DNA of 32,000 nucleotides from Bradyrhizobium erythrophlei (GTDB lineage: Bacteria; Pseudomonadota; Alphaproteobacteria; Rhizobiales; Xanthobacteraceae): positions 1,010,278 to 1,042,277 of the forward strand of contig NZ_LT670817.1 in assembly GCF_900129425.1 (NCBI RefSeq), read 5' to 3'. The position numbers and the translations under genes were made by a program. Within the stretch, counting starts at the first letter, position 1, and every line of letters starts with the position of its first letter. This document shows, piece after piece, positions 6,340 through 32,000 of this stretch. Below the pieces are notes generated by a model, which ran no database searches, was not told where the DNA came from, and saw nothing but the letters and a program-made list of their open reading frames with translations.

Positions 6340-7041
6340 TCAGGCGGGAATGCGCTCTTCGACCTCGTGCGGCTCGCGCAGCACGTAGCCACGGCCCCAG
6401 ACGGTCTCGATGAAGTTGCGGCCTTCGGAGGCGTTGGCGAGCTTCTTGCGCAGCTTGCAGATGAAGACGTCGATGATCTTGAGTTCCGGCTCGTCCATGC
6501 CGCCATAGAGATGATTGAGGAACATCTCCTTGGTCAGGGTGGTGCCCTTGCGGAGCGAGAGCAGCTCCAGCATCTGGTATTCCTTGCCGGTCAGGTGCAC
6601 GCGCTGGCCGCCGACCTCGACCGTCTTGGTGTCGAGATTGACCACGAGATCGCCGGTCTGGATCACCGACTGGGCGTGGCCCTTGGAACGGCGCACGATC
6701 GCATGGATCCGCGCCACCAGTTCGTCCTTGTGGAAGGGCTTGGTCATGTAGTCGTCGGCACCGACGCCGAGACCCTTGACCTTGTCCTCGATGCCGGCAA
6801 GGCCGGAGAGGATCAGAATCGGGGTTTTGATCTTGGAGACCCGAAGCTGCTTGAGCACGTCGTAACCGGACATGTCAGGCAGGTTGAGGTCGAGCAGGAT
6901 AATGTCGTAGTCGTAAAGTTTGCCGAGATCGACGCCTTCTTCCCCGAGATCCGTCGTGTAGACGTTAAAACTCTCGGATTTAAGCATCAACTCGATCGAC
7001 TGCGCGACGGCGCTGTCATCTTCAATCAGCAAAACGCGCAT
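6340..7041 (-). CDS. ctrA: Cell-cycle response regulator CtrA (OmpR family)
   Basis: 233-aa [70 protein letters not shown] ... [14 protein letters not shown] ... [13 protein letters not shown] is the recognisable CtrA sequence. Confidence 0.97.
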
Positions 7042-11708: not shown

Positions 11709-13841
11709 CTAGATGCTTCCGACCGTCTTCAGCCGCGCGCGGGGATGGATTTCGGCCTGCGACAACACCGTCGTTTGCGACCTGAAGCGCTCCACCAGCG
11801 AACGCACGAAGGGACGGATCGCCGCCGAGGTCACCAATACCGGCGCCTCGCCTTCGCGGGCCGCCTGTTCGAAGCGCTCGCGTACCACGGTCATGAACTC
11901 CGACAGTCTTGAAGGCTGCATCGCAAGACTGCGCTCCTCGCCCGTGCCGATCAGCGACTCGGCAAAGGCCTGCTCCCATTTTGCCGACAGCGCGATCAGC
12001 GGCAGGTAGCCGTTATGGGAGGTATTCTGGGCGCAAATCTGCCGCGCCAGCCGGGCGCGAACATGCTCGACCATGGTGGCCGGGTTGCGCGAAAACGCCA
12101 GCGCGTCGGCGATGCCTTCGAGAATGGTCGAGAGATCGCGGATCGAGATGCGCTCGGCGAGCAACAGCTGCAGCACGCGCTGAATGCCCGAGATCGTGAC
12201 CAGGCTCGGCACGATGTCCTTGACCAGTTCGCCCTGCTCCTTCGGCAGGTCCTTCAGGAGTTTCTGCACCTCGCCATAGGACAACAGGTCCGACATATTG
12301 TTCTTGAGAAGCTCGGTGAGGTGGGTCGAGAGCACGGTGGCGGCGTCGACCACGGTATAGCCCTTCAGCGAAGCCTCCTCCTTCAGGCTGGCATCGACCC
12401 AGGTTGCCGGCAGCCCGAAGGTCGGCTCGGTGGTATGTATGCCGGGCACTCCGACCTGGTTTCCTGCGGGGTCCATGACCATGAACTGGTTCGGCCAGAT
12501 CCGGCCGGTGCCGGCATCGACTTCCTTGATCTTGATGACGTAGGTGTTGGCCTCGAGCTGCACGTTGTCGAGGATGCGCACCGCCGGCATCACAAAGCCC
12601 ATCTCGATCGCGAGCGAACGGCGCAGCGCCTTGATCTGCTCGGTCAGGCGGTCGGTTCCGTCGGGGCCGTTGACCAGCGGCAGCAGCGCATAGCCGAGTT
12701 CGATCTTGAGATCGTCGATCTTTAGCGCGGTTGCGATCGGCTCTTCGGCCGCGGCGTTCGCCGCGGCGGCGGCTGCGGGAGCGGCGGCGGCGACCGCCGC
12801 GGCTGTCGAGGCCGCGCGTTTGCGTTTGCCCGCCGTGATCGCCAGCGCCGCCGCGCCGCCGCCCAGCAGCAGGAAGGGAATCATCGGAATACCCGGCAGG
12901 ATCGCCAGCACCAGCATCACACCGGCCGACATGCCGAGCGCCTGCGGATAGCCGGAAAGCTGCTTCATCAGCGCCTTGTCGGCGGCGCCGCTGACGCCCG
13001 CCTTCGAGACCAGCAAGCCCGCCGCGGTGGAGACGATCAGCGCGGGCACCTGCGTCACCAGGCCGTCGCCGACGGTCAGCAGCGTGTAGCTGCGTGCGGC
13101 TTCGCCGAAACCGAGGCCTTGCTGGAAGACGCCGATGATGATGCCGCCGATGATGTTGATGAAAACGACCAGAAGGCCGGCGACCGCGTCGCCGCGCACG
13201 AATTTCGACGCACCGTCCATCGCACCGAAGAAGCCGCTTTCGTCTTCCAGTGCCTTGCGGCGCTCCTTGGCGACTTTCTCGTCGATCAGCCCGGCGGACA
13301 GATCGGCGTCGATCGCCATCTGCTTGCCCGGCATGGAATCGAGGTGAAAGCGGGCCGCGACTTCCGCGATACGTCCCGAACCTTTGGTAATGACGACGAA
13401 ATTCACGATCACCAGAATCGCGAAGACGATAATTCCGATCACGAAATTGCCGCCCATCACGAAATTGCCGAAGGCTTCGATGACGTGGCCGGCGGCGTCG
13501 CTGCCCTCATGTCCGCGTGACAGGATCAGCCGGGTCGAGGCCAGGTTGAGCGACAGCCGCAGCATGGTCGAAATCAGCAGAATGGTCGGGAACGAGGAGA
13601 ATTCCAGCGGCGCCTGGATGAACAGCGATGTCATCAGGATCAGGATCGACAGCGTGATCGAGATCGCGAGAAAGAGGTCGAGCACGATCGAGGGCAGCGG
13701 CAGGATCAGCACGACCAGAATGGTGAGGATACCGAACGCCAGCGCGAGATCGCCGCGCTTCAGGATGGTGCCGATTTCGCTGAAACTCGGAATGCCGCTT
13801 CCGGGCGCCCTTGCGATCTGCCCTGCCGTGACATCGACCAT
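11709..13841 (-). CDS. flhA: Flagellar biosynthesis protein FlhA (export gate)
   Basis: ORF 11709..13943; the likely start is ATG 13841 (MVDVTAGQ...). FlhA hallmarks: LALAFGILTILVVLILPLP, FPTILLISTMLRLSLNLASTRLIL, ITKGSGRIAEVAARFHLDSMPGKQMAIDADL, KFVRGDAVAGL. Confidence 0.95.
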   Translation of the reverse strand: MVDVTAGQIARAPGSGIPSFSEIGTILKRGDLALAFGILTILVVLILPLPSIVLDLFLAISITLSILILMTSLFIQAPLEFSSFPTILLISTMLRLSLNLASTRLILSRGHEGSDAAGHVIEAFGNFVMGGNFVIGIIVFAILVIVNFVVITKGSGRIAEVAARFHLDSMPGKQMAIDADLSAGLIDEKVAKERRKALEDESGFFGAMDGASKFVRGDAVAGLLVVFINIIGGIIIGVFQQGLGFGEAARSYTLLTVGDGLVTQVPALIVSTAAGLLVSKAGVSGAADKALMKQLSGYPQALGMSAGVMLVLAILPGIPMIPFLLLGGGAAALAITAGKRKRAASTAAAVAAAAPAAAAAANAAAEEPIATALKIDDLKIELGYALLPLVNGPDGTDRLTEQIKALRRSLAIEMGFVMPAVRILDNVQLEANTYVIKIKEVDAGTGRIWPNQFMVMDPAGNQVGVPGIHTTEPTFGLPATWVDASLKEEASLKGYTVVDAATVLSTHLTELLKNNMSDLLSYGEVQKLLKDLPKEQGELVKDIVPSLVTISGIQRVLQLLLAERISIRDLSTILEGIADALAFSRNPATMVEHVRARLARQICAQNTSHNGYLPLIALSAKWEQAFAESLIGTGEERSLAMQPSRLSEFMTVVRERFEQAAREGEAPVLVTSAAIRPFVRSLVERFRSQTTVLSQAEIHPRARLKTVGSI

Positions 13842-14068: not shown

Positions 14069-14086
14069 GATGCGCAATTGCGCATC
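14069..14086. promoter_or_regulatory. Perfect 18-bp palindrome, candidate operator
   Basis: GATGCGCAATTGCGCATC equals its own reverse complement. It sits in the flhA/MFS divergent region and overlaps the first ATG of the MFS ORF. Confidence 0.45.
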
Positions 14087-15464
14087 GGGGAACCTCGAGA
14101 TTCCGGGTTCGATGCCAGTGCATCGCCCCGGAATGACGGAAACCCTGTTGCACTGCATCTGCATGCCCAATATCGCGCCATGTTGCTTGACCCACGGGCC
14201 GCGGGCAGGGAAGTTGCCCGTCGTGCACGCTCCCTCCGATTCCCAAGGTCGCCAAGCTTTCGCCCCTGATTCCCGCCAGGCTTGGGTGCGGCTTGCGCTC
14301 GCGCTGGTGATCGGCTCGATCGGCAGCGTCGGCATGTGGTCGGTCGTGGTCGTGCTGCCGGGGGTGCAGGCCGAATTCGGGGCCAGCCGCGGCGATGTAT
14401 CGTTGGCCTTTACCTTCACCATGCTCGGCTTCGGTCTCGGCGGCGTCGCCGCCGGAAAGATCACCGATCGCCTCGGCATCGTGGTGGCGATCGGGCTTAG
14501 CATCGGCTTTCTTGGCGTGGCCTATGTGGCCGCCGGCCTTTCGACCACGCTGTGGCAGTTCATTGCCGTGTATTTCCTGATCGGACTGGGGACGTCGGCG
14601 ACCTTCGCGCCGCTGATGGCGGAGGTTTCGCACTGGTTCGAACGCTATCGCGGGCTGGCGGTGACCATCGTTGCCAGCGGCAATTATGTCGGCGGAACGA
14701 TCTGGCCGCCGCTGGTCAATTGGGGCGTGCAGTTGGCCGGCTGGCGCACCACCCATATCGCTGTCGGAATTTTCTGCGCCGTGACCATGACGATGGTGCT
14801 GCTGCTGCTGCGCGCCCAGATCGGCGGCGCAACACGGCGAGATCATGAGAACGCGCCGCCGCCGCGGGTCGATCTGCGGCTCAGCAACAATACGCTGACG
14901 GCGCTGCTGTGCATCGCCAGCGTTTCCTGCTGCGTGGCGATGGCGATGCCGCAGGTTCACATCGTCGCCTATTGCGGCGATCTCGGCTACGGTGTGGCGC
15001 GCGGCGCCGAAATGCTGTCGCTGATGATGGCGTTCGGGATCGTCAGCCGCATCGGATCGGGGTTTCTCGCCGACAGGATCGGCGGCGTCAGAACGTTGAT
15101 GATCGGATCGGTGGCGCAGGGTTTTGCGCTGCTGTTCTATCTGTTTTTCGACAGTCTCTCCTCGCTCTATATCATCTCCGCGATGTTCGGGCTGTTCCAG
15201 GGCGGTATCGTGCCGAGCTACGCCATCATCGTCCGCGAATCGATGCCGGCCAGCGAAGCCGCGACCCGGGTCGGCATCGTGATCCTGGCTTCCGTGGTCG
15301 GGATGTCATTCGGCGGCTGGGTCTCCGGCGTGATCTTCGACGCGACCGGCTCCTACGCGGCGGCTTTCCTCAATGGCCTTTTGTGGAATGCGCTCAACAT
15401 CACCATCGGGGCCGGGCTGTTGCTCCGGGCGCGGCAACGGCTGGCGATGGCGTCAACGACCTGA
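14070..15464 (+). CDS. MFS transporter
   Basis: 464-aa ORF with about 12 hydrophobic segments and MFS-like loops (GKITDRLGIV; FLADRIGGVRTL). The start is uncertain. In-frame alternatives are ATG 14133, ATG 14163 and GTG 14223. GTG 14223 follows AGGGAAG and leaves about 20 aa before TM1. Confidence 0.85.
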   Translation: MRNCASGNLEIPGSMPVHRPGMTETLLHCICMPNIAPCCLTHGPRAGKLPVVHAPSDSQGRQAFAPDSRQAWVRLALALVIGSIGSVGMWSVVVVLPGVQAEFGASRGDVSLAFTFTMLGFGLGGVAAGKITDRLGIVVAIGLSIGFLGVAYVAAGLSTTLWQFIAVYFLIGLGTSATFAPLMAEVSHWFERYRGLAVTIVASGNYVGGTIWPPLVNWGVQLAGWRTTHIAVGIFCAVTMTMVLLLLRAQIGGATRRDHENAPPPRVDLRLSNNTLTALLCIASVSCCVAMAMPQVHIVAYCGDLGYGVARGAEMLSLMMAFGIVSRIGSGFLADRIGGVRTLMIGSVAQGFALLFYLFFDSLSSLYIISAMFGLFQGGIVPSYAIIVRESMPASEAATRVGIVILASVVGMSFGGWVSGVIFDATGSYAAAFLNGLLWNALNITIGAGLLLRARQRLAMASTT

Positions 15465-15657
15465 GCATGCCCATGGAAGGCCGCCCCAACAACCGCCGGG
15501 GCCGACGGCGCCGTTTCATTGACGCTGTCCGTGAAACGTGCATCATACCATCAGGACAACCGAACGCCAGTTCGACATTTGAAATGCTTGATTATCGAAG
15601 CGTCATTTGTATTGCGGGAGTATCGTTCGCGTCATTGCACCATTCCAAATTTTTCAA

Positions 15658-15789
15658 AGTCCGATTATTCAGATTGAGGAGAAAGTCATGCGGCATCTCG
15701 TGCGCATTGTCCTTTCCATATTTGTCGCCGCTCTGATCGTTCAAACGACAGCCATCTCGAAGTCTTTCGCCGATTGTCCGCCGAATTGC
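15658..15789 (+). repeat. Direct repeat copy 1 (5' UTR, signal peptide and DCPPNC-coding part of mini-protein A)
   Basis: Aligns with 18124..18259. Within it, 49 of 50 nt are identical (ctcgtgcgcattgtcctttcNatatttgtcgccgctctgatcgttcaaac). Both copies share AGGAGAnAGTCATG at the start. Confidence 0.85.
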
Positions 15790-15852
15790 AGAAAGGGGAA
15801 TCAGAGTGCGCCTCCGGCCTCGCCCCCGCCCTCGAACCCACCCCCCAAATGA
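15688..15852 (+). CDS. Secreted mini-protein A (54 aa): signal peptide, DCPPNC motif, Pro/Ser-rich tail
   Basis: ATG at 15688 follows GAGGAGAAAGTC. Sequence MRHLVRIVLSIFVAALIVQTTAISKSFADCPPNCRKGNQSAPPASPPPSNPPPK. A paralog lies at 18158. The synonymous-only divergence across ISKSFADCPPNC argues for translation. Confidence 0.65.
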   Translation: MRHLVRIVLSIFVAALIVQTTAISKSFADCPPNCRKGNQSAPPASPPPSNPPPK

Positions 15853-15953
15853 GAGCGTTGCTGTCTGCGATTAGACGCGCCGGCGCTGGTGCGGCTTTCC
15901 GTATTTGATATGCTTTTCCAATGCGAACGAATTGACGGACGAGCCACGGCACC

Positions 15954-18137
15954 ATGCTCAGGGCTTCCAAAAAGGCAACGAGCCAGGAATCGCCAGACCA
16001 TCGGCAACGTTTGAGCGCCTGGGCACCCAAAACGCAGCGCGCGGCGGCACGCTGGTTGAAAGCCGGTCGAAAAGTCTGGTCTTTGCAAGGCGCGGGGCTA
16101 ATGACCGCCGCGGCGGCGCTGATCAGCATCATCCAAATTCTCGTTGCGGTTCAGGGCAAGCTGGTGATTCTTCCGTTCGAGGTCAGGAGCGATCAAAATA
16201 CGCCGAGCGATCTGGGAGCGTCGTTTTCGGCCAGCCTGTCGATCGCTCTGAATGAATACAGGTCGCTATTTCCCTCCTCGGCTCCGAACAGCGCACGGCA
16301 GACTGTTACGAGCAAAAACTATCCCGACCTCGTTCAATCCTTCATGTCGGACCTGCCGTTTGTTGAGATTCCGAGATCTTCACCCTTGAACAAAGGTGCG
16401 ACGGTCCTCGAGGCAATTAAAATCGGGCCGATTTCGATACCGGTCAGTCAGGTCGTGTTCGAGAATCTGGCTTTCTTTCACGACGACACGTTGCGAGGAA
16501 CGCTTGAGATCTGGGGAAACGAACTCGTTGCGAGGATTTCGCTGGGGAACGACGATGCAACGACCACCATTTCTGTTCCGAAAGATCAGGGCTACCGTGC
16601 GCTGATAGATCGTATAACCGTGGAATTGCTTCAAAAGAAGAAGTGGATTTCTCCAATCCCGATGAAGCTGTCAGCTTTGACGTTGTTCAGTGAAGGGCTG
16701 CACAATTATTTGAACTTCGACTTATATGCAGAAGACAGGTTCATCAGCGCTGCCCGGGAAAAGTACCAAGCCGCGTTGCAGGCGGACCCTGATGCCGATC
16801 TGGCCCGTCTCCATCTAGCCGCTACGCAGTACATCAGCACCGACCCGGCAATCATCGCAAAGGCGGTAGAGAATTTCTCGCTGCTGGTCGGAGACCGGCA
16901 TTTCAACCGCGCCGCCAGAATTGGATATGTCGCTTCTTCTTTGCGATACATTGAGCGCGCGGGCGGGTGCACCGGGTTATACCGGTTTCTGGCTCCGACC
17001 CTCCAGGAGGTCCGATCATGGGAGCAGGACGGGAAACCCCCCGCTGGAATCGAAGAACTGCTGCTTTGGAGTGCAACGTTTCAATTGACCGCTGACTTTC
17101 TGCTCCCCGGCAAGCCGTGCGCGCAATGGATTAAATCGACGTTACGGGAAGACAGCGTCACCAAGCTGTTCGAGAAGGCACAACAGGGCTACGAACAGGC
17201 AAAGGCGAAGATCGCGGAACCAAAGCGATACCCGGATAGCGTAGTTGCACGATATCAATTTTACGTTCTTCTCAGCACCAAATATTTGCTCGATGACATG
17301 GTCGATTATTCCCTGCTTTTGAAAACCCCAAATCTGGAGCTTGCAAACGCCGCGCTGGAACGCGGCAAGGAAATCGAGAAGCAGAAGGACGCGATGCCCG
17401 AAGCGCAGCAGCGCTTTTTCGCAACCAGCATCGCCGGCTCTGTTGCAGACAGCTATTTGCGGATAGCGAAGATATACGAATCGAACGCATCAGCGGCAGG
17501 ACCGCTTGTTTCGGCCGCCATCGATCAACTACGGCTGGCGGCAGGATCAACCGAACCGCTCACCGCGCAATGGGCTTTGTTCCGGCTGGCTGACCTTGAA
17601 CTGGGCCGATCGAACGCGCGAACGTCAATGGAGTGGTTGACCCGGGCCTATAGCGGTTTGCCGTCGTTTTCCAGCGCCTTCGATGAATCCTATTTTCCGT
17701 TTGGCATCCTGGTCGAAAAGCCCAGCCAGCGCTGCGAGGCCATCACGCTGCTCAAAAAAGGAAGCGCAGCAGGAAGCGTCGCGAGTAAACTGCTTCTTAT
17801 CGACGCGCTGCGGCGGATGGGCGATTTGCCCAACGCATTGGCGACTGCGGACACGCTTCGAACGTCCGTCGATTGGTCGACCAAGTGGATGGGCGGCGCG
17901 ATCCAGCAAAAGCTCTCGCTGGTCGAAGCGAAACTGAAGCCGCACAACACAGTTCCTGTCGATATGGAGGCGCTGTGGAAACAATCCGATTCGCTGGGCC
18001 CCGAAAACGAGTTTCTGAAATTTGACGTTTACGAACTGGCGGAAATCATCGGGGATGAAGCGCTCTTGACAAAGCTGAAAGCGAGAATATCGTTTCCGCC
18101 ATTGCATCAATCTGGAGTTGTCCAGTCCAATTGTTGA
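15954..18137 (+). CDS. Membrane-anchored TPR-like repeat protein, hypothetical
   Basis: 727-aa ORF. Basic N-terminal tail (11 K/R against 2 D/E in 48 aa), one TM helix (MTAAAALISIIQILVAV), then KLVILPFEV and a long helical region containing at least one clear TPR-like unit (AREKYQAALQADPDADLARLHLAATQY). An alternative start is ATG 16101. GC is lower than in neighbouring genes. Confidence 0.8.
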   Translation: MLRASKKATSQESPDHRQRLSAWAPKTQRAAARWLKAGRKVWSLQGAGLMTAAAALISIIQILVAVQGKLVILPFEVRSDQNTPSDLGASFSASLSIALNEYRSLFPSSAPNSARQTVTSKNYPDLVQSFMSDLPFVEIPRSSPLNKGATVLEAIKIGPISIPVSQVVFENLAFFHDDTLRGTLEIWGNELVARISLGNDDATTTISVPKDQGYRALIDRITVELLQKKKWISPIPMKLSALTLFSEGLHNYLNFDLYAEDRFISAAREKYQAALQADPDADLARLHLAATQYISTDPAIIAKAVENFSLLVGDRHFNRAARIGYVASSLRYIERAGGCTGLYRFLAPTLQEVRSWEQDGKPPAGIEELLLWSATFQLTADFLLPGKPCAQWIKSTLREDSVTKLFEKAQQGYEQAKAKIAEPKRYPDSVVARYQFYVLLSTKYLLDDMVDYSLLLKTPNLELANAALERGKEIEKQKDAMPEAQQRFFATSIAGSVADSYLRIAKIYESNASAAGPLVSAAIDQLRLAAGSTEPLTAQWALFRLADLELGRSNARTSMEWLTRAYSGLPSFSSAFDESYFPFGILVEKPSQRCEAITLLKKGSAAGSVASKLLLIDALRRMGDLPNALATADTLRTSVDWSTKWMGGAIQQKLSLVEAKLKPHNTVPVDMEALWKQSDSLGPENEFLKFDVYELAEIIGDEALLTKLKARISFPPLHQSGVVQSNC

Positions 18138-18259
18138 GGTTGGTTCAGGAGATAGTCATGAGAGCCCTCGTGCGCATTGTCCTTTCAATATTTGTCGCCG
18201 CTCTGATCGTTCAAACCGCTGGTATTTCCAAATCGTTCGCCGATTGTCCGCCAAACTGT
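18124..18259 (+). repeat. Direct repeat copy 2
   Basis: Matches 15658..15789. It starts inside the last codons of the TPR gene (agtccaattgttga) and ends at the second Cys codon of mini-protein B. Confidence 0.85.
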
Positions 18260-18292
18260 AAGCCGAAAGAAGCTCCGCCCCCGAAGCCATAA
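18158..18292 (+). CDS. Secreted mini-protein B (44 aa), paralog of A; not in the supplied ORF track
   Basis: Hand translation from ATG 18158, preceded by CAGGAGATAGTC and lying 20 nt after the TPR stop: MRALVRIVLSIFVAALIVQTAGISKSFADCPPNCKPKEAPPPKP, stop TAA at 18290-18292. 31 of the first 34 residues are identical to mini-protein A. Confidence 0.65.
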   Translation: MRALVRIVLSIFVAALIVQTAGISKSFADCPPNCKPKEAPPPKP

Positions 18293-18567
18293 CGCCTGAA
18301 GAGCCTCGGGGCCCCGAATTCATTTCGCCTGCGCGATATGGTTATTTTGGCGATCGCGCGGGGATTTGTTTCGTCTTCTGTCCTGAAGTCGGCAAGGCTG
18401 ACCGGACGGATGCTGAATTTTCGTCTTCAGGCCGCAAATTGTTTTGATGTATCTTGACGCGAACCGGTACGGCCCCGGATTGCGTCGGGGCAGGCTTTGG
18501 CTCCAAAACGCTTCACACCCCCTGGCCCGCCTTGCCGGTGCGGAAGCGACCGCAAACGTTGTTTTCA

Positions 18568-20148
18568 TTACCGCGGCATCCCCCGCAGATTTTGCTTCGC
18601 TTCGGGATTGCCGAGCGCCGCCGCCTTCTCGAACCACTGGCGCGCGGCCCTGACATTGCGGCGAACGCCGTCGCCTTCGTTGTAGATCACCCCGAGGTTG
18701 TTCATCGCGGCGGCGTTGCCGAGCGCCGCGCCTTGTTCGAACAGGTGCCGTGCCTCGCCATAATCGCGGGGTACGCCTTTGCCATAAAGATAGATCAGGC
18801 CAAGATTGCCCATGCCTGCAGGCACGCCGGCCTTGGTCGCCAATTCGTACAACCGGCGGGCTTCCGCCAGGTCCTTGACCACGCCGTGCCCGGTCTCATA
18901 GAGCCAGCCGAGGTCGACCATGGCGATCGGTTCGCCGGCCGCCACACCCCTCGCGTACCAGCGGCCCGCCTCGACATAATTGGTGGGTACGCCCTCGTTA
19001 CCCTCGTACACGCTGCCCAGATTGTTCATCGCCATGCCGTAACCGGCGGCGGCTGCTTGCTCGTAGAGCCGCCGCGCCTCGACATAGTCCTTCCGCGCGG
19101 TGGCCACGCGTCCGGCCTCGAAGGTAAATCTCACCACTTCCGGATAGTGCGCGATCGCGTCGTTGCAGGCTGTGGAGGCCGCGGCGACGTTGATCCTGTC
19201 CACTTCCACGCCTGCGAGGTCCGGCGCATGCCCGGTATCGTAGGGCATCCCGGCCAGCCGGTCGCAGTCGGTGACGAGATCGCGGCGGAGCGGATCGTCC
19301 GGCGGCGTGATCCGGGCTTCCTGAACGGGCGTATCAGGCGGTGCCAGCGCCGGCCAGGCGTCCACCGTCGGCGGCTTGCCGGCGAAATAGAAATTGCCCG
19401 CGATCGGCGAGGAGGACACCCACGGCAGTTGCTGGCCGCCGGTCGCCTTCTCCACCGCAAGGCCGACTTCGTTGAACGACTTGAACAGGCCGAAGCCGGG
19501 CCGCTGCATCGTTTCCGCCAGCGCGCGCGTATACGGGCTGTGACCGTCGTCGCCATCGAGCGAGACGCTGCGCGGCTGGGTCGCAAACGAAATCAAGGTC
19601 CCGATGGGTGCCTGCATCTGCGCAAGGCCGCCCGTGGTCGAGCGTACGCCGCGGTCCCTGAACGGGTTGTCGCGACAGGCGTCGAGCAAGACCAGGTTGA
19701 TCCGCGCCCCGGCTTTTTCCATCTGGCCGAGAATGCTCGCAAGACCGGTCATCTGCGCAAACACATCGCCTTCATCGGCCGGATGGGCGTCGACCGGGAC
19801 CAGATAGTTGAGGCCGTGCGTCTCCACGCCGTGGCCGGCATAATAGAACAGCGCGACGTCGGCTCCGGTCAGCGCCGTGCCGAACTTGCGCAGGGCCTCG
19901 TCGAAGCCTGCCTTGTCGAGGTCAAGCTGGGCGCCGCCGCCGACGATGGCAAAGCCGAGCGAGGACAGCGTATCCGCAATCAGCCTGGCATCGGCCGTGG
20001 GGTTGGGCAGCGCCGGCACGGTGCGGTACGCCGAATTGCCGATCACCAGCGCGACGCGTTTTTCCGCATGCGCCGCCGAGCAGCGGCCGGCGCACATCAA
20101 CAATGCCGCGAGTATCCATCGCGACACGATGCCGATCCGGCCGTCCAT
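18568..20148 (-). CDS. Secreted caspase-family (peptidase C14) protein with C-terminal Sel1 repeats
   Basis: ORF 18568..20343. The likely start is ATG 20148, with GGAGAG 9 nt upstream, giving a signal-like N-terminus MDGRIGIVSRWILAALLMCAGRCSAAHA/EKRVALVIGNSAY. C14 His and Cys motifs: FYYAGHGVE and LVLLDACRDNPF. The C-terminus has four full and one partial 36-aa Sel1 repeats (e.g. AGRWYARGVAAGEPIAMVDLGWLYETGHGVVKDLAE). Confidence 0.85.
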   Translation of the reverse strand: MDGRIGIVSRWILAALLMCAGRCSAAHAEKRVALVIGNSAYRTVPALPNPTADARLIADTLSSLGFAIVGGGAQLDLDKAGFDEALRKFGTALTGADVALFYYAGHGVETHGLNYLVPVDAHPADEGDVFAQMTGLASILGQMEKAGARINLVLLDACRDNPFRDRGVRSTTGGLAQMQAPIGTLISFATQPRSVSLDGDDGHSPYTRALAETMQRPGFGLFKSFNEVGLAVEKATGGQQLPWVSSSPIAGNFYFAGKPPTVDAWPALAPPDTPVQEARITPPDDPLRRDLVTDCDRLAGMPYDTGHAPDLAGVEVDRINVAAASTACNDAIAHYPEVVRFTFEAGRVATARKDYVEARRLYEQAAAAGYGMAMNNLGSVYEGNEGVPTNYVEAGRWYARGVAAGEPIAMVDLGWLYETGHGVVKDLAEARRLYELATKAGVPAGMGNLGLIYLYGKGVPRDYGEARHLFEQGAALGNAAAMNNLGVIYNEGDGVRRNVRAARQWFEKAAALGNPEAKQNLRGMPR

Positions 20149-20350
20149 GACAATGCACTCTCCGCGCGCGAGCGAATTCCCGCTGTCTGTTGGTGTCGTA
20201 ACGGCAGGGATTGGTTCGATCAGTGAAGGCCGCCGCGGTCCGAAACGATCGGCGAGTGTGGCCATCTTATTCATTTTAGTTGAATGGCTGGATGCAGCGT
20301 CACAGATCCAATCTTTCCAGAGGTCCGGATACCGGGCTACCACACCTATC

Positions 20351-20388
20351 TTGCATCAATGGTAGAAATTATATATAATTCTACCATG
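20351..20388 (+). promoter_or_regulatory. vapBC sigma70-type promoter with an overlapping inverted-repeat operator
   Basis: TTGCAT (20351-20356), 17 nt, TATAAT (20374-20379). Perfect 9-bp inverted repeat ATGGTAGAA (20359-20367) and TTCTACCAT (20379-20387), separated by an 11-nt AT spacer. Confidence 0.6.
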
Positions 20389-20397
20389 AGGAAGGCG

Positions 20398-20649
20398 ATG
20401 CATCTGAACATCAAAAACGACGAGGCCCATAAGCTTGCAACCGAGCTTGCCGAACTGACCGGCGAAAGCCTGACCTCGGCCGTCACGCTGGCCTTGCGGG
20501 AGCGTCTCGCGCGAGAGCGCCGTCGCCGTCGAACCGACCGCATCGCGGCCCGATTGATGAAGATTGGTAGCCAGTTTGCTGCGCTCGCCGATACCGGACG
20601 CGGCCCGGACGAAATCCTCGGTTATGACGACGACGGCTTGCCGACATGA
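20398..20649 (+). CDS. vapB: Type II antitoxin, VapB/FitA-like
   Basis: ORF 20284..20649. The preferred start is ATG 20398, after GAGGAAGG (20388-20395). MHLNIKNDEAHKLATELAELTGESLTSAVTLALRERL is typical of antitoxins partnered with PIN toxins. Its stop overlaps the vapC start (ATGA). Confidence 0.8.
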   Translation: MHLNIKNDEAHKLATELAELTGESLTSAVTLALRERLARERRRRRTDRIAARLMKIGSQFAALADTGRGPDEILGYDDDGLPT

Positions 20650-21047
20650 TCGTGGTCGACAGTTCGGCCGTCATCGCAATCTTTCGCCAGGAGGAGGATG
20701 CAGAGGTTTATGCGGAAAGCATCGCAGCCGATGAAGATCCGGTGATGTCCGCAGCCAACCTGGTGGAGGTATCGGTTGTGTTGCGTGGGTTGAAAAAGAC
20801 AGTGCCGGAAAAGGCTGAACGATGGCTTGACGATTTCATCAAGGCGGCGGGCATCCGGATAGAACCGGTAACGCCAGAGCAGGCGCAGGCGGCGCGTTTG
20901 GCACACTTGAGATACGGCAAAGGTACCGGGCATGGCGCGGCGCTGAACTATGGCGATTGCTTCGCCTATGCACTGGCAAAGGCAATGGACGCGCCGCTGC
21001 TGTGCAAGGGGAACGATTTTCCGTTGACCGACATAGGCATCGCGTAG
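20646..21047 (+). CDS. vapC: Type II toxin VapC (PIN-domain ribonuclease)
   Basis: 133 aa. MIVVDSSAVIAI (N-terminal Asp), NLVEVSVVL (Glu), YGDCFAYALA (Asp) and LLCKGNDF match the PIN acidic-residue pattern. Confidence 0.9.
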   Translation: MIVVDSSAVIAIFRQEEDAEVYAESIAADEDPVMSAANLVEVSVVLRGLKKTVPEKAERWLDDFIKAAGIRIEPVTPEQAQAARLAHLRYGKGTGHGAALNYGDCFAYALAKAMDAPLLCKGNDFPLTDIGIA

Positions 21048-30123: not shown

Positions 30124-31623
30124 CTATTCAGGCCGATAAAACTCGCGCCGGAGCTGCGATGATATGTGCAGGTCCGATCGAGGTCGTGTTTTTAAGTCAT
30201 CGGGGCGCCGCTCGCGATTGCCGGCTTTCTGGGCCGAACTCAGATCGATCTCAGAAAAGCTGCCGTCCCAAGGAGCCGCGTCGCTGCTGATATTCCTGAG
30301 AGCTAGCTGACGCGCCATGAACGCATCAACTAGCTCCCTTGGGACATCACTCGTTCCGCCCTGCCCAAAGGTCACCACCGGTGGTAGTTCCGGATGCATA
30401 AGAGTATGCGCCATGCCGTACGCCGGCCAAACCGGAGGGTGACTCAAATTTGGCAACCCGAATTTCGTGGGCTCAGCACAAAAACTACAGCTCTCGACGC
30501 TCACGAACCCTGAGTATTGTGACAGCTCTTTGTCTAGCCGCAGTTGATATCGAAATGCATCCAAACTTGCAGCAATGCTGACGCCATAGAACCCCGCTAG
30601 AAACGTTATCGCCAGATCACGTAACGGCCTCTCTCCGAACCAATCGAAGAATCGGGACGGCCATTCAACAAGGTCGCGATTAAGAATGATCGGTAATGAA
30701 GCGATCAACGCCACAATGCCGGCGCTGTAAATGCGGGATGGATAAGCGTACTGAAATTCCCGCGTACGAAGGCCAATCAATTCCGGTACGATTAAAATGC
30801 AAAGCGGAACAGCGAACGCAACAAGAGGAGCGGCGGTCCGGAGAACAAAGTTTTCTCCAATAAGCTTCAAGTAGATCGCCCCCACCAATAGTGCCGCAAT
30901 AAAGATTCCGCTTATTGCAAACACGAACCAATGAAACGCGTCGTGACCCGGACGCGTGGTCTCGCCATAATGACAAATTATTTGAAACGGCAGGGCGAGG
31001 ACAAGGATTGCAACTAGCGCAAGCTCCTTGGACGAGACCCTTTTGGATCGCCGGCCGGTATAGACGCCAATTGCCAGCACAATGTTTGACAGCGCGACAA
31101 TTTCGTAGCTCGCCAGAAGTAAAAATCCAATAAAGAGCCGCCGGAACGCTTGAGGATCTCGCTCAGCGTCAAGGGAATATACGACGAAAATCGTTGTAAG
31201 ACCCAATGCAAAAAGGAGCTCCGTTGCGGCGAAATTGGAAAGAAAGATCGTGGCGGAAATAAACAATGTGACCAGCAGGCTCTTAGTGGGAGCATTCAAC
31301 CTGGAATTTATAATAATAATCGCCGGAAGCGCTATCTGACAGTAGGTAACAACTCCGTACGCGAAGGTTGCAAGCTGAATCTGTGAAGGAAAGAAGAGAC
31401 CGATCAGCCGAACCGGGGCAGTCGTCCACAGTACGGCAAAAAAGCGTCTCGGCGTTTCTTGGTCCTGTGGATACCACAATGGATCGAGAAACGACTGCAC
31501 GACAGAGCTTGCTCCGTCCATAAAAAATTGACGACCAGCAATCGCACTGACAATAAGTACCAAAGTGATAGTCACACTGTGCGCAGCGGCACCGTCCTTC
31601 GTGAGCCATGTACGCAAATGCAT
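30124..31623 (-). CDS. Polytopic membrane protein, hypothetical, with a soluble C-terminal domain of about 130 aa
   Basis: 499-aa ORF with about 10-11 hydrophobic segments. The C-terminal part (from FVSVESCSFCAEPTKFGLPNLSHPP) is hydrophilic. No family recognised. Low GC, with an AT-rich upstream region. Confidence 0.75.
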   Translation of the reverse strand: MHLRTWLTKDGAAAHSVTITLVLIVSAIAGRQFFMDGASSVVQSFLDPLWYPQDQETPRRFFAVLWTTAPVRLIGLFFPSQIQLATFAYGVVTYCQIALPAIIIINSRLNAPTKSLLVTLFISATIFLSNFAATELLFALGLTTIFVVYSLDAERDPQAFRRLFIGFLLLASYEIVALSNIVLAIGVYTGRRSKRVSSKELALVAILVLALPFQIICHYGETTRPGHDAFHWFVFAISGIFIAALLVGAIYLKLIGENFVLRTAAPLVAFAVPLCILIVPELIGLRTREFQYAYPSRIYSAGIVALIASLPIILNRDLVEWPSRFFDWFGERPLRDLAITFLAGFYGVSIAASLDAFRYQLRLDKELSQYSGFVSVESCSFCAEPTKFGLPNLSHPPVWPAYGMAHTLMHPELPPVVTFGQGGTSDVPRELVDAFMARQLALRNISSDAAPWDGSFSEIDLSSAQKAGNRERRPDDLKTRPRSDLHISSQLRREFYRPE

Positions 31624-31803
31624 GGTGGAACTCGTTTTTTACAACAGAAATTCTGAAAATAGCCTTCGAGAACGATTTATTGATTTGGCCCCGAATAGCG
31701 TATTGATTTTAAATGATAATTAATATTATTTGTTAAATCAAGCTCATCATTAAAATGGCTCGTTTTAATTCTGTGAGGTTCTCGCCTGTCTAAGCTGTTG
31801 TTC

Positions 31804-32000
31804 TTAGGCTGTTCTTGCTAAAAAAGATCGGATGCCACTTAAAACGCCAATTAATTTGCCCGCCAGAGCAAGCCCCCAGGCAGGTATCGCAAAGAACGCC
31901 CGGTCTGTGGTCAAGGTGAGATCGACCGGACTGTTCGCCACCGATCCGGTGCTGCGGAAGCTGGGGAAAGCCAACACCTTTAAGACTGGCCACTCCTGGT
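31804..32000 (-). CDS. Possible C-terminal end of a membrane protein entering from the right edge (partial)
   Basis: Hand translation of the minus strand from 31998: QEWPVLKVLAFPSFRSTGSVANSPVDLTLTTDRAFFAIPAWGLALAGKLIGVLSGIRSFLARTA, stop at 31806-31804. Open to the window edge with a hydrophobic C-terminus. A competing ORF in another frame (31790..31993) looks less protein-like. Confidence 0.3.
   Translation of the reverse strand, partial: QEWPVLKVLAFPSFRSTGSVANSPVDLTLTTDRAFFAIPAWGLALAGKLIGVLSGIRSFLARTA

What the first reader, a model, noticed from the sequence alone, without database searches (positions are those of the whole stretch)
15688..20148. Candidate four-gene envelope module: peptides, TPR scaffold and a convergent secreted caspase-Sel1 protease
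All four products carry export or anchoring signals and so should meet in the envelope. The neighbour on the opposite strand is a C14 (caspase/orthocaspase-type) protease fused to Sel1 repeats, another TPR-class peptide-binding module. Bacterial orthocaspases and metacaspases characteristically cleave after Arg or Lys. The peptide tails have basic residues right after the CPPNC loop (C-RK-G in A, C-KPK-E in B). A protease, repeat scaffold and small substrate or ligand peptides would form a coherent processing or signalling unit that I cannot match to a described system. Linkage of the protease to the cassette is the weakest part: it is convergent, 275 nt away, and has core-like high GC.
Basis: inference. 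Interest (0 to 1): 0.7.

Follow-up and report, generated by a model that had tools for sequence, protein, structure and literature searches.

The report
Periplasmic TPR protein with CPPNC micropeptide partner
The two tiny secreted peptides and the large repeat protein between them are a real, conserved and undescribed gene cassette, but the neighbouring caspase-like protease is an unrelated gene that ended up next door only through a recent 427-base deletion.

Summary
They are pepA (15688-15852), a 727-aa membrane-anchored helical-repeat protein (15954-18137), pepB (18158-18292), and a convergent C14 caspase-type protease with four Sel1 repeats (18568-20148).

About ten cassette lineages were examined, from 17 to 99% protein identity. 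Only the window's own lineage has a C14 gene nearby. In a 97%-identical relative (L006) a DUF4864 gene sits between pepB and the protease; the window has lost it through a 427-nt deletion. C14-Sel1 proteins are common on rhizobial plasmids, and none of those plasmids carries the big protein.

What is conserved is a two-gene unit. The TM-anchored periplasmic TPR-like protein is followed within 0-22 nt by a 40-56-aa peptide. That peptide has a Sec-type signal, an AxA cleavage site, an invariant CPP(N/D)C one or two residues later, and a variable Pro/Lys-rich tail. The pairing holds down to 23% identity of the big protein.

The cassette is low in GC, has its own conserved promoter-like site, and lies at the 3' end of an MFS gene. 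No Pfam, NCBIfam, PADLOC or Rfam family, and no paper found, describes it. The most likely function is a periplasmic peptide-receptor pair using cysteine chemistry. That function is inferred, not shown.

The parts
14070..15464 (+). MFS_1 transporter gene. It is the insertion-site neighbour of the cassette, not a conserved functional partner.
   Evidence: NCBIfam and Pfam MFS hits. An MFS gene lies upstream of the big gene in all Xanthobacteraceae-type loci. It is absent upstream in distant loci: recA in L026 and TctC in L029. GC is 0.65 against 0.55 for the big gene.
15519..15546 (+). Sigma-70-like promoter candidate for the cassette (TTGACG-16 nt-CATCAT).
   Evidence: Found by the consensus scan. 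The block TTGACGC...GTGCAT(C/A)AT...CAACCGA is conserved just after the MFS stop in the window, L006, L001, L002 and L008. It is a consensus and conservation match only. No transcription has been shown.
15614..15687 (+). Non-coding remnant of the 3' end of the big gene plus the Shine-Dalgarno site, duplicated together with the peptide gene to give pepA.
   Evidence: Window 15614-15788 aligns with the pepB region 18081-18258.
15688..15852 (+). pepA: a 54-aa precursor with a Sec-type signal (cleavage SFA|D), a CPPNC loop and a Pro-rich tail. It is a lineage-specific second copy.
   Evidence: An upstream copy is present only in the window, L006, L023, L025, L005 and L024.
15954..18137 (+). 727-aa protein with a basic cytoplasmic N-terminus, one TM helix (about residues 47-70), a conserved VILPFE-containing domain, and then a TPR-like helical solenoid. 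It has four invariant Cys: 339, 389, 594 and 727 (the last residue).
18158..18292 (+). pepB: a 44-aa precursor with a Sec-type signal, a CPPNC loop and the tail KPKEAPPPKP. It sits in the ancestral, conserved partner position, 20 nt after the big-gene stop.
18512..18533 (-). Last codons of a DUF4864 gene and the junction of a 427-nt deletion.
   Evidence: Window 18293-18533 equals L006 12340-12579, and window 18533-18700 equals L006 13007-13174. The missing L006 segment encodes DUF4864. DUF4864 is the downstream neighbour in L001, L002 and L005.
18568..20148 (-). C14 (orthocaspase-type) protease with four Sel1 repeats and a signal-like N-terminus. It is a core-genome neighbour and NOT part of the cassette.
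   Evidence: Pfam, PDB sequence matches to the MALT1 paracaspase domain and to Sel1 proteins, motifs, and absence from all other cassette loci.

Best explanation
The functional unit is a self-contained cassette with its own promoter-like site. It encodes a membrane-anchored periplasmic TPR-like protein and one or two copies of a Sec-exported micropeptide.

**Shown by sequence and comparison**
- The big gene and a CPP(N/D)C peptide gene are strictly linked, 0-22 nt apart and each with its own Shine-Dalgarno, across relatives from 23% to 99% identity.
- The peptide has a canonical n-h-c signal with small residues at -3 and -1. The first Cys lies at +2 or +3 of the predicted mature peptide.
- The big protein is N-in / C-out, and all four of its Cys lie in the periplasmic part.

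**Inferred**
- After signal-peptidase cleavage, a 12-28-residue peptide is released into the periplasm. It has an N-terminal Cys-Pro-Pro-Asn/Asp-Cys loop (a disulfide-closed or metal/thiol-active CxxxC) and a Pro/Lys-rich extended tail.
- That peptide is bound by the TPR solenoid of its co-encoded partner, as TPR domains bind extended peptides.
- The invariant loop is the recognition or reaction element. It probably works with Cys594 and the C-terminal Cys727, through a mixed disulfide or a shared metal or thiol site.
- The output could be signalling or assembly through the single TM helix. This is unknown.

**The protease**
The C14-Sel1 protease is an independent periplasmic protease of the core genome. 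It became adjacent only when the intervening DUF4864 gene was deleted.
For: **Linkage of the two genes**
- Every close-family locus has at least one intact CPPNC gene next to the big gene.
- The distant loci L027 (about 38% identity), L026 (22-31%) and L030 (23%) each have signal + [G/A]CPPDC + tail directly after the big gene.

**Exclusivity**
- A profile search of 5.8 billion proteins with the peptide alignment returns only 15 peptides, all carrying the motif.
- For the nine that are identical to peptides read from fetched loci, or that share a contig length with a big-protein hit, the context is a cassette locus. The other six were not looked up.

**Translation and selection**
- The five motif codons change synonymously while the amino acids do not. 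All 12 peptide genes with readable upstream sequence have GGAG-type Shine-Dalgarno sites.

**Topology and fold**
-.

**Cysteine co-occurrence**
- Four lineages with the Cys594 equivalent plus a near-C-terminal Cys have the peptide.
- Three lineages lacking Cys594 have no peptide (P0045/L029, P0058/L028, P0062). Two of these also lack the terminal Cys.
- L030 was chosen as a prediction from this pattern, and the peptide was there.

**Independence from neighbours**
- The upstream and downstream genes differ between distant loci.
- The cassette GC is 0.51-0.57 against 0.64-0.66 for the MFS gene in 9 loci.
- The promoter-like block is conserved.

**Protease exclusion**
-.
Against: - No binding, export or processing has been observed. 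The mechanism is inference from anatomy.
- The AlphaFold2 model is only moderate (mean pLDDT 66.6) and poor for residues 1-260. Structural matches are generic TPR with low TM-scores.
- The peptide tail is highly variable in length and sequence. This is unusual for a specific TPR ligand unless only the loop matters.
- In L002 and L003 the big gene is frameshifted while the peptide gene is intact. In L005 pepB is frameshifted. Parts of the cassette can therefore decay.
- Some distant homologues of the big protein have no peptide.
- The cysteine-peptide correlation rests on 7 lineages that are not phylogenetically independent.
Confidence: 0.6

Rival explanations
1. One reading: a four-gene processing unit in which the secreted C14-Sel1 protease cleaves the peptides after Arg/Lys next to the CPPNC loop, with the TPR protein as scaffold.
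For: - All four products look exported or anchored.
- Non-caspase C14 proteases prefer Arg/Lys at P1, and orthocaspases fused to Sel1 or TPR domains are known (PMC5756287).
- Both window peptides have K/R right after the loop.
Against: - C14 is absent from every cassette locus outside the window's own lineage.
- In L006 a DUF4864 gene lies between pepB and the protease, and the window carries a 427-nt deletion there.
- C14-Sel1 proteins are widespread without the cassette.
- The basic residue after the loop is not conserved.
- The protease gene is convergent and differs in GC.
Confidence: 0.04
2. The small proteins are not cleaved. They stay in the inner membrane as single-pass subunits (N-in, CPPNC tail out) that pack against the TM helix of the big protein, like small accessory membrane proteins of larger complexes.
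For: - The hydrophobic core with a conserved polar Q/T (IVQTT) is unusually well conserved for a signal peptide.
- The two genes are translationally close-coupled.
Against: - The h-region is only about 12-14 residues, followed by a canonical AxA site in all 13 orthologues, including the very different signals of L026, L027 and L030.
- Signal sequences of distant members share no sequence. Only the motif that follows them is shared.
Confidence: 0.15
3. The peptide is an exported effector in its own right, such as an antimicrobial, a metal-chelating peptide or a RiPP-like product. The TPR protein would serve as its immunity, chaperone or export helper.
For: - It is a short secreted Cys-containing, Pro-rich peptide.
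- CxxxC motifs can bind Cu(I), for example the CPDVC-type motif of Sco proteins (my own knowledge, not tested here).
- The cassette looks horizontally acquired: low GC and different genomic contexts.
Against: - No modifying enzyme (MNIO/DUF692, radical SAM, YcaO), no dedicated exporter and no metal-homeostasis gene is conserved next to it.
- The leader is an ordinary Sec signal.
- There are no PADLOC hits.
Confidence: 0.13
4. The cassette is decaying horizontally acquired DNA with no current function in this host.
For: - Low GC.
- Frameshifts in L002, L003 and L005.
- Extremely narrow distribution: 2 of 185,579 species genomes.
- Duplications and deletions around it.
Against: - The 727-codon ORF is intact in the window and in 12 clusters at 52-100% identity.
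- The peptide motif is under clear purifying selection.
- Every lineage keeps at least one intact peptide gene.
Confidence: 0.08

Closest known systems
RRNPP peptide-TPR receptor pairs of Firmicutes and their phages (Rap/Phr, NprR/NprX, PlcR/PapR, PrgX, AimR/AimP)
   Same: A TPR-type helical solenoid is encoded next to a small gene for a secreted, signal-peptide-bearing peptide that is its presumed ligand. Rap-Phr complexes are among the structural matches.
   Different: - RRNPP receptors are cytoplasmic, carry HTH or phosphatase domains, and sense re-imported peptides.
- Here the receptor is membrane-anchored with its solenoid in the periplasm and has no HTH.
- The organism is an alphaproteobacterium.
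- The peptide carries an invariant CxxxC loop.
- Sequence and TM-score similarity is only generic TPR.
NlpI-Prc and other TPR adaptor / periplasmic protease pairs
   Different: No protease is conserved with the cassette. The big protein is TM-anchored and is not a lipoprotein.
CcmI/CycH-type membrane-anchored TPR chaperones of apocytochrome c
   Same: - A single TM anchor with a periplasmic TPR domain that handles a Sec-exported client bearing a Cys pair near its N-terminus.
- Two family members give weak TPR_CcmH_CycH Pfam hits (best E about 1e-3).
   Different: - The client motif is CxxxC without His, so it is not a CxxCH haem site.
- No ccm genes are nearby.
- The similarity is below any family threshold.
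Bufferin-type RiPP precursors (Sec-signal, Cys-containing, with MNIO enzymes); comparison from my own knowledge
   Same: Small precursors with a genuine Sec signal and conserved Cys, in Proteobacteria.
   Different: The defining MNIO (DUF692) and DUF2063 partner genes are absent from the window and from all loci.
Bacterial orthocaspases (Peptidase C14) with Sel1/TPR C-terminal domains
   Same: The neighbouring gene is an ordinary member: a p20-type domain, a His/Cys motif pair and Sel1 repeats (PMC5756287).
   Different: It is not linked to the cassette.

Membership tests
Peptidase C14 (orthocaspase) - the 18568-20148 gene | p20-type caspase domain detected above the curated threshold | tested here: met
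   PF00656 scores 119.9 bits against a cutoff of 21.4, E 1.8e-34. The MALT1 paracaspase domain matches at E about 1e-12.
Peptidase C14 (orthocaspase) - the 18568-20148 gene | Catalytic His-Cys dyad | tested here: met
   YYAGHG (His106) and LLDAC (Cys158) motifs lie in the expected order within the domain. This is motif level only; no activity was tested.
Peptidase C14 (orthocaspase) - the 18568-20148 gene | Cleavage after Arg/Lys | not testable with these tools
   This is a literature property of the family (PMC5756287).
Sel1-like repeat proteins | Tandem Sel1 repeats | tested here: met
   PF08238 gives 4 stretches at E 3.2e-35. Solved Sel1 repeat proteins match at E 2.5e-60.
   C14 is found only in the window, L004, L006 and L023, which are one lineage. 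It is absent from all other cassette loci. DUF4864 intervenes in L006.
TPR proteins - the 727-aa protein | TPR repeats recognisable by sequence profile | tested here: inconclusive
   The window protein scores only E=0.01, below the gathering cutoff. Across 19 relatives TPR_19 hits 11, with best E 1.6e-7. A PDB profile search hits designed TPR/PPR proteins at E 4e-6 to 2e-4.
TPR proteins - the 727-aa protein | Alpha-alpha superhelical solenoid fold | tested here: met
   In the AF2 model, residues 260-710 are helix pairs at pLDDT about 80-90. Foldseek top matches are all TPR superhelices, with probability 1.0 but TM 0.5 or lower.
RRNPP quorum-sensing receptors | Cytoplasmic receptor with an HTH or phosphatase effector domain | tested here: not met
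   The protein has a TM helix and predicted N-in topology, with the solenoid in the periplasm. No HTH or other domain is found.
RRNPP quorum-sensing receptors | Adjacent small gene for an exported peptide ligand | tested here: met
RiPP systems (including MNIO/bufferin, radical-SAM and YcaO types) | Precursor gene next to a modifying-enzyme gene | tested here: not met
   No such Pfam family appears in the window genes or in the called genes of any locus.
Bacterial lipoproteins (for the peptides) | Lipobox with Cys at +1 of the cleavage site | tested here: not met
   The first Cys is at +2 or +3 after AxA in nearly all orthologues. Only P0029 (IAG|C) and L030 (AAG|C) resemble a lipobox.
c-type cytochrome haem-binding peptides | CxxCH motif | tested here: not met
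   The motif is C-P-P-N/D-C, with three intervening residues and never followed by His.
Anti-phage defence systems (PADLOC) | Match to a defence-protein model | tested here: not met
   There is no hit for the big protein or the peptides. The protease gives only a generic 'caspase' hit.

The most novel reading that the evidence does not exclude
The cassette is a periplasmic counterpart of Gram-positive peptide-TPR signalling pairs. It would be an autonomous, horizontally mobile two-gene module in Alphaproteobacteria and other Gram-negatives. In it, a Sec-exported micropeptide with an N-terminal redox- or metal-active CPP(N/D)C loop is captured by a membrane-anchored TPR receptor. Capture would be covalent through a mixed disulfide, or through a shared metal, using the receptor's co-varying Cys594 and C-terminal Cys. 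That would give a peptide-based envelope sensing or thiol-relay mechanism of a kind not yet described.
Probability: 0.2. Interest if true: 0.75.

Novelty: new variant of a known kind. Interest (0 to 1): 0.45.

Why it matters
If the pairing is functional, it defines a new family of Gram-negative envelope micropeptides with a dedicated TPR partner. Secreted sub-50-aa proteins are rarely annotated, and almost none has a known receptor. The invariant five-residue loop, the four invariant cysteines of the partner and the small size of the cassette make it easy to test, using a synthetic peptide, one soluble domain and two Cys mutants.

The finding also shows how adjacency can mislead. The attractive protease-substrate story rests on a 427-bp deletion in one strain.

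The practical scope is narrow. The family is very rare: 45 clusters among 1.8 billion representatives, and 2 of 185,579 species genomes.

Tried and rejected
- **Metagenome scan:** the 19-sequence alignment A4 was too divergent to derive search patterns. The narrower A5 gave 4 loci.
- **Third word-indexed protein search:** run with the distant members, it returned only 5 proteins.
- **Rfam:** no RNA family was found in the whole window at gathering threshold, or in 15300-18700 at E up to 1. There is therefore no riboswitch clue.
- **PADLOC:** nothing for the cassette.
- **NCBIfam:** nothing for the big protein or the peptides.
- **Literature:** full-text searches for 'CPPNC' and 'CPPDC' returned only unrelated abbreviations.
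- **Phage and plasmid carriage:** there were no viral-contig relatives and no plasmid relatives of the big protein.
- **Contig-length clustering:** many homologue contigs cluster at about 2.85 kb. I first suspected a small circular or repeat-bounded element. I rejected this because L004, L005, L023 and L024 are simply short metagenome contigs that run into the normal flanking genes.
- **MFS as a functional partner:** rejected. The cassette has a different GC and its own promoter-like site. It is flanked by a duplicated MFS 3' end, and it sits next to recA or TctC in distant lineages.
- **Complex prediction:** a peptide-linker-receptor fusion for AlphaFold was prepared but not submitted.
Full report
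**1. What is in the sequence**

The region holds, on the + strand, two small genes and one large ORF.
- pepA (15688-15852, 54 aa).
- A 727-codon ORF (15954-18137).
- pepB (18158-18292, 44 aa).

On the - strand, after a 275-nt gap, lies a gene whose likely start is the ATG at 20148.

Features of the small genes:
- Both have a GGAGA Shine-Dalgarno site 6-7 nt before the ATG.
- Their first 34 residues are almost identical: MR(H/A)LVRIVLSIFVAALIVQT..ISKSFA|DCPPNC.
- They arose by a DNA duplication that also copied about 70 nt of the big gene's 3' end.

Features of the big protein:
- A basic N-terminus (11 K/R against 2 D/E in 47 residues).
- One strongly hydrophobic segment at residues 47-73.
- Exactly four Cys, at positions 339, 389, 594 and 727; the last is the C-terminal residue.

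Features of the - strand gene:
- It scores Peptidase_C14 (E 1.8e-34) and four Sel1 repeats (E 3.2e-35).
- It has AGHG and LLDAC motifs and a signal-like N-terminus.
- It matches the MALT1 paracaspase domain and solved Sel1 proteins.

GC is 0.52-0.59 across the cassette, against 0.64-0.68 on both sides.

**2. Is the big protein a 'TPR scaffold'?**

By sequence, only weakly. Pfam TPR hits in the window protein are below threshold. NCBIfam and PADLOC give nothing.

Across 19 relatives, TPR_19 hits 11, with best E 1.6e-7. A family profile hits only designed TPR/PPR chains in the PDB.

An AlphaFold2 model built from 12 homologues has mean pLDDT 66.6. Residues 260-710 are a confident all-helical solenoid, and residues 1-260 are poorly predicted. 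Foldseek against the PDB returns only TPR superhelices, such as the LGN TPR, Rap-Phr receptors, the OGT TPR and designed CTPRs. Probabilities are high but TM-scores are low. 'TPR-like periplasmic solenoid on a single TM anchor' is a fair description.

**3. What is conserved elsewhere**

The big protein is rare.
- 15 proteins were found in a 5.8-billion-protein word-indexed search.
- 45 clusters at 50% identity were found in an exhaustive HMM search of 1.84 billion representatives. About 19 of these are full-length, at 17-79% identity.
- Only 2 of 185,579 species genomes carry it. One is an uncultured alphaproteobacterial MAG that is 97% identical to, and syntenic with, the window (L006). The other is a Xanthobacteraceae MAG (L007).

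In every close-family locus the big gene is accompanied by at least one intact CPPNC peptide gene. In most loci it lies immediately downstream. In L024 it lies only upstream. In L005 the upstream copy is intact and the downstream copy is frameshifted.

The pairing persists in three deeply divergent lineages.
- L027 (about 38% identity)...PSQA|GCPPDCGSEQGKPP.
- L026 (22-31%)...AQA|ACPPDCVQDKEDSGNGR.
- L030 (23%)...AAA|GCPPDCGQNNPPPPPK.

Their signal sequences are unrelated to the window's. What they share is the architecture: an n-h-c signal, small residues at -3 and -1, the first Cys at +2 or +3, CPP(N/D)C, and then a short Pro/Lys-rich tail.

Across 13 orthologues the five motif codons change synonymously (TGT/TGC, CCN, AAT/AAC or GAT/GAC). 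All 12 with readable upstream sequence have a GGAG-type Shine-Dalgarno. This indicates translation and purifying selection.

A profile search with the peptides finds only 15 proteins in the database, all carrying the motif. Nine of these are traceable to cassette loci, by identity to peptides read from fetched loci or by a contig length shared with a big-protein hit. The contexts of the other six were not looked up.

**4. The protease is not part of it**

The downstream neighbours of the cassette vary between lineages.
- DUF4864 in L001 and L005.
- A beta-lactamase-fold gene and then DUF4864 in L002.
- SnoaL in L008 and L009.
- An unknown gene in L012.
- A DDE transposase in L019-21.
- Other genes in L026, L027 and L030.

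A tblastn of the window's C14-Sel1 protein against all fetched loci hits only L004, L006 and L023, which belong to the window's own lineage.

In L006 an intact DUF4864 gene (12559-13029, - strand) lies between pepB and the protease. Window 18293-18533 aligns to L006 12340-12579, and window 18533-18700 aligns to L006 13007-13174. The window therefore lacks 427 nt that encode DUF4864. DUF4864 is the ancestral neighbour, so the 275-nt 'spacer' is a deletion scar.

Conversely, C14-Sel1-type 'caspase family proteins' occur in 129 plasmid records at 80% coverage or more (Rhizobium, Bradyrhizobium, Rhodobacter and others). The big protein has no match in any of the 72,556 plasmids searched.

It applies to only 4 of 13 orthologues.

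Non-caspase C14 proteases cleave after Arg/Lys, and orthocaspases carry Sel1 or TPR domains (PMC5756287). This only makes the protease an ordinary member of a known family.

**5. The cassette as a unit**

The big gene has GC 0.51-0.57 in nine loci, against 0.64-0.66 for the upstream MFS gene.

Just after the MFS stop there is a sigma-70-like site: TTGACG-16-CATCAT at 15519-15546. The surrounding block is conserved in L006, L001, L002 and L008. This suggests the cassette has its own promoter, with pepA inserted between it and the big gene in this lineage.

Downstream of the cassette, several lineages retain a duplicate of the last 114-210 nt of the MFS gene, ending at its stop codon.
- L012: 151 nt at 95%.
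- L002: 114 nt at 86%.
- L001: degraded.
- L005 and L024: visible at protein level.

The cassette therefore sits in a duplicated MFS 3' end, as integrative elements do. It encodes no recombinase.

In distant lineages the neighbours are recA or TctC instead. The MFS gene is therefore an insertion site and not a partner. No phage or plasmid copies were found. No Rfam element lies in or near the cassette.

**6. Mechanism**

Shown:
- Strict genetic coupling of the two genes.
- Export signals on both products.
- An invariant loop at the extreme N-terminus of the predicted mature peptide.
- Four invariant periplasmic Cys in the partner.

Suggestive:
- The four lineages whose big protein keeps the Cys594 equivalent and a near-C-terminal Cys all have the peptide.
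- The three that lack Cys594 have none (P0045, P0058, P0062). Two of these also lack the terminal Cys and instead have a Peripla_BP_6 gene 24 nt downstream.
- L030 was picked as a test of this pattern and had the peptide.
- The sample is small and not phylogenetically independent.

Inferred:
- The peptide is cleaved by signal peptidase I.
- Its CPP(N/D)C forms a disulfide-closed or thiol/metal-active loop.
- The TPR solenoid binds it, with Cys594 and Cys727 taking part.

I put about 0.8 on 'two-gene periplasmic pair, protease unrelated'. I put about 0.4 on the specific ligand-receptor / cysteine-chemistry mechanism. The combined confidence is 0.6.

Rivals are an uncleaved membrane micro-subunit, an exported effector with the TPR protein as helper or immunity, and decaying acquired DNA. 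The last draws on the frameshifts in L002, L003 and L005.

**7. Comparison with known systems, and novelty**

Functionally, the closest analogues are RRNPP peptide-TPR pairs. The defining features of that family are not met, because those receptors are cytoplasmic and carry an HTH or phosphatase domain.
- CcmI-type TPR chaperones resemble the topology, but the motif is not CxxCH.
- RiPP or bufferin membership fails for lack of any modifying enzyme.
- Lipoprotein membership fails on the lipobox.

Neither protein belongs to any Pfam, NCBIfam or PADLOC family, and no paper mentions the motif. I rate the cassette a new variant of a known kind, a TPR protein with a cognate secreted peptide. The function is untested and the distribution is very narrow.

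**8. Verdict**

- Interest is 0.45. The cassette is real, cleanly defined and undescribed, and the hypothesis is testable.

Noticed in passing
L012 3814-3964 vs 6512-6662; L002 9759-9872 vs 12675-12788; L001 9584-9795 vs 12486-12647; L024 2554-2715; L005 about 2613-2732: The cassette is flanked downstream by a duplicate of the last 114-210 nt of the upstream MFS gene, ending at its stop codon. Each remnant is closest to its own lineage's MFS gene (95%, 86%, about 72%). This suggests gene conversion or repeated site-specific insertion, yet the 2.5-kb cassette encodes no recombinase. The remnant is absent in the window, L006, L007, L008 and L019.
   Followed up: partly
window 15614-15852 vs 18081-18292; L005, L024: pepA arose by duplicating the big-gene 3' end together with pepB to a site upstream of the big gene. 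Lineages then kept different copies: both in the window, only pepA in L024, and pepA intact with pepB frameshifted in L005. Pro-rich tails expand and contract, for example a run of 12 Pro in L024 and loss of SNPP in L006 pepA.
   Followed up: partly
window 18533 (junction); L006 12580-13006: The window, L004 and L023 carry a 427-nt deletion that removes a DUF4864 gene relative to the 97%-identical MAG L006. In L006 the C14-Sel1 gene and DUF4864 lie in tandem, 13 nt apart on the same strand, so they may be co-transcribed there.
   Followed up: yes
L028 917-4378; contig of P0062 (no DNA held): A distant subfamily of the big protein lacks Cys594 and the C-terminal Cys. It is followed 24 nt downstream by a Peripla_BP_6 solute-binding-protein gene instead of a CPPxC peptide. 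The partner may have been swapped within the family.
   Followed up: partly
L002 10001-12198 and L003 169-2366: The big gene is split by a frameshift into overlapping ORFs of 465 and 279-323 aa in two independent metagenome samples. The CPPNC peptide gene about 300 nt downstream remains intact.
   Followed up: no
window 20284-21047 (+): A VapBC-type toxin-antitoxin pair lies right after the protease gene. It comprises an Rv0623-like antitoxin (PF07704, E 6e-27) and a PIN-domain toxin (E 1e-19), with overlapping stop and start.
   Followed up: no
window 20318 vs L006 14803-15471; window 24983 vs L006 20134-20345; window 6260 vs L006 87-253: Three further indels separate the window from the 97%-identical MAG L006. 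They are about 668 nt, about 211 nt and about 165 nt, and are present in L006 only. The 668-nt one lies between the protease gene and the vapB-like gene. Their content was not examined.
   Followed up: no
window 30500-32000 and ORF 30124-31623 (-): GC falls to 0.46-0.50 at the right end of the window. The 499-aa ORF there has no Pfam hit at E up to 1e-5. This may be another acquired segment.
   Followed up: no
window 16161-16740 (big protein residues about 70-260): The most conserved part of the big protein is GKLVILPFEVRSDQ...LGASFAASLSIALNEYR...KIGPVSIPVSQVVFENL. It lies between the TM helix and the solenoid and is not modelled confidently (pLDDT 25-55). From memory, the 'VxVLPFE' start resembles the N-terminal periplasmic modules found before TPRs in some rhizobial cyclase or regulator proteins. 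This was not tested.
   Followed up: no
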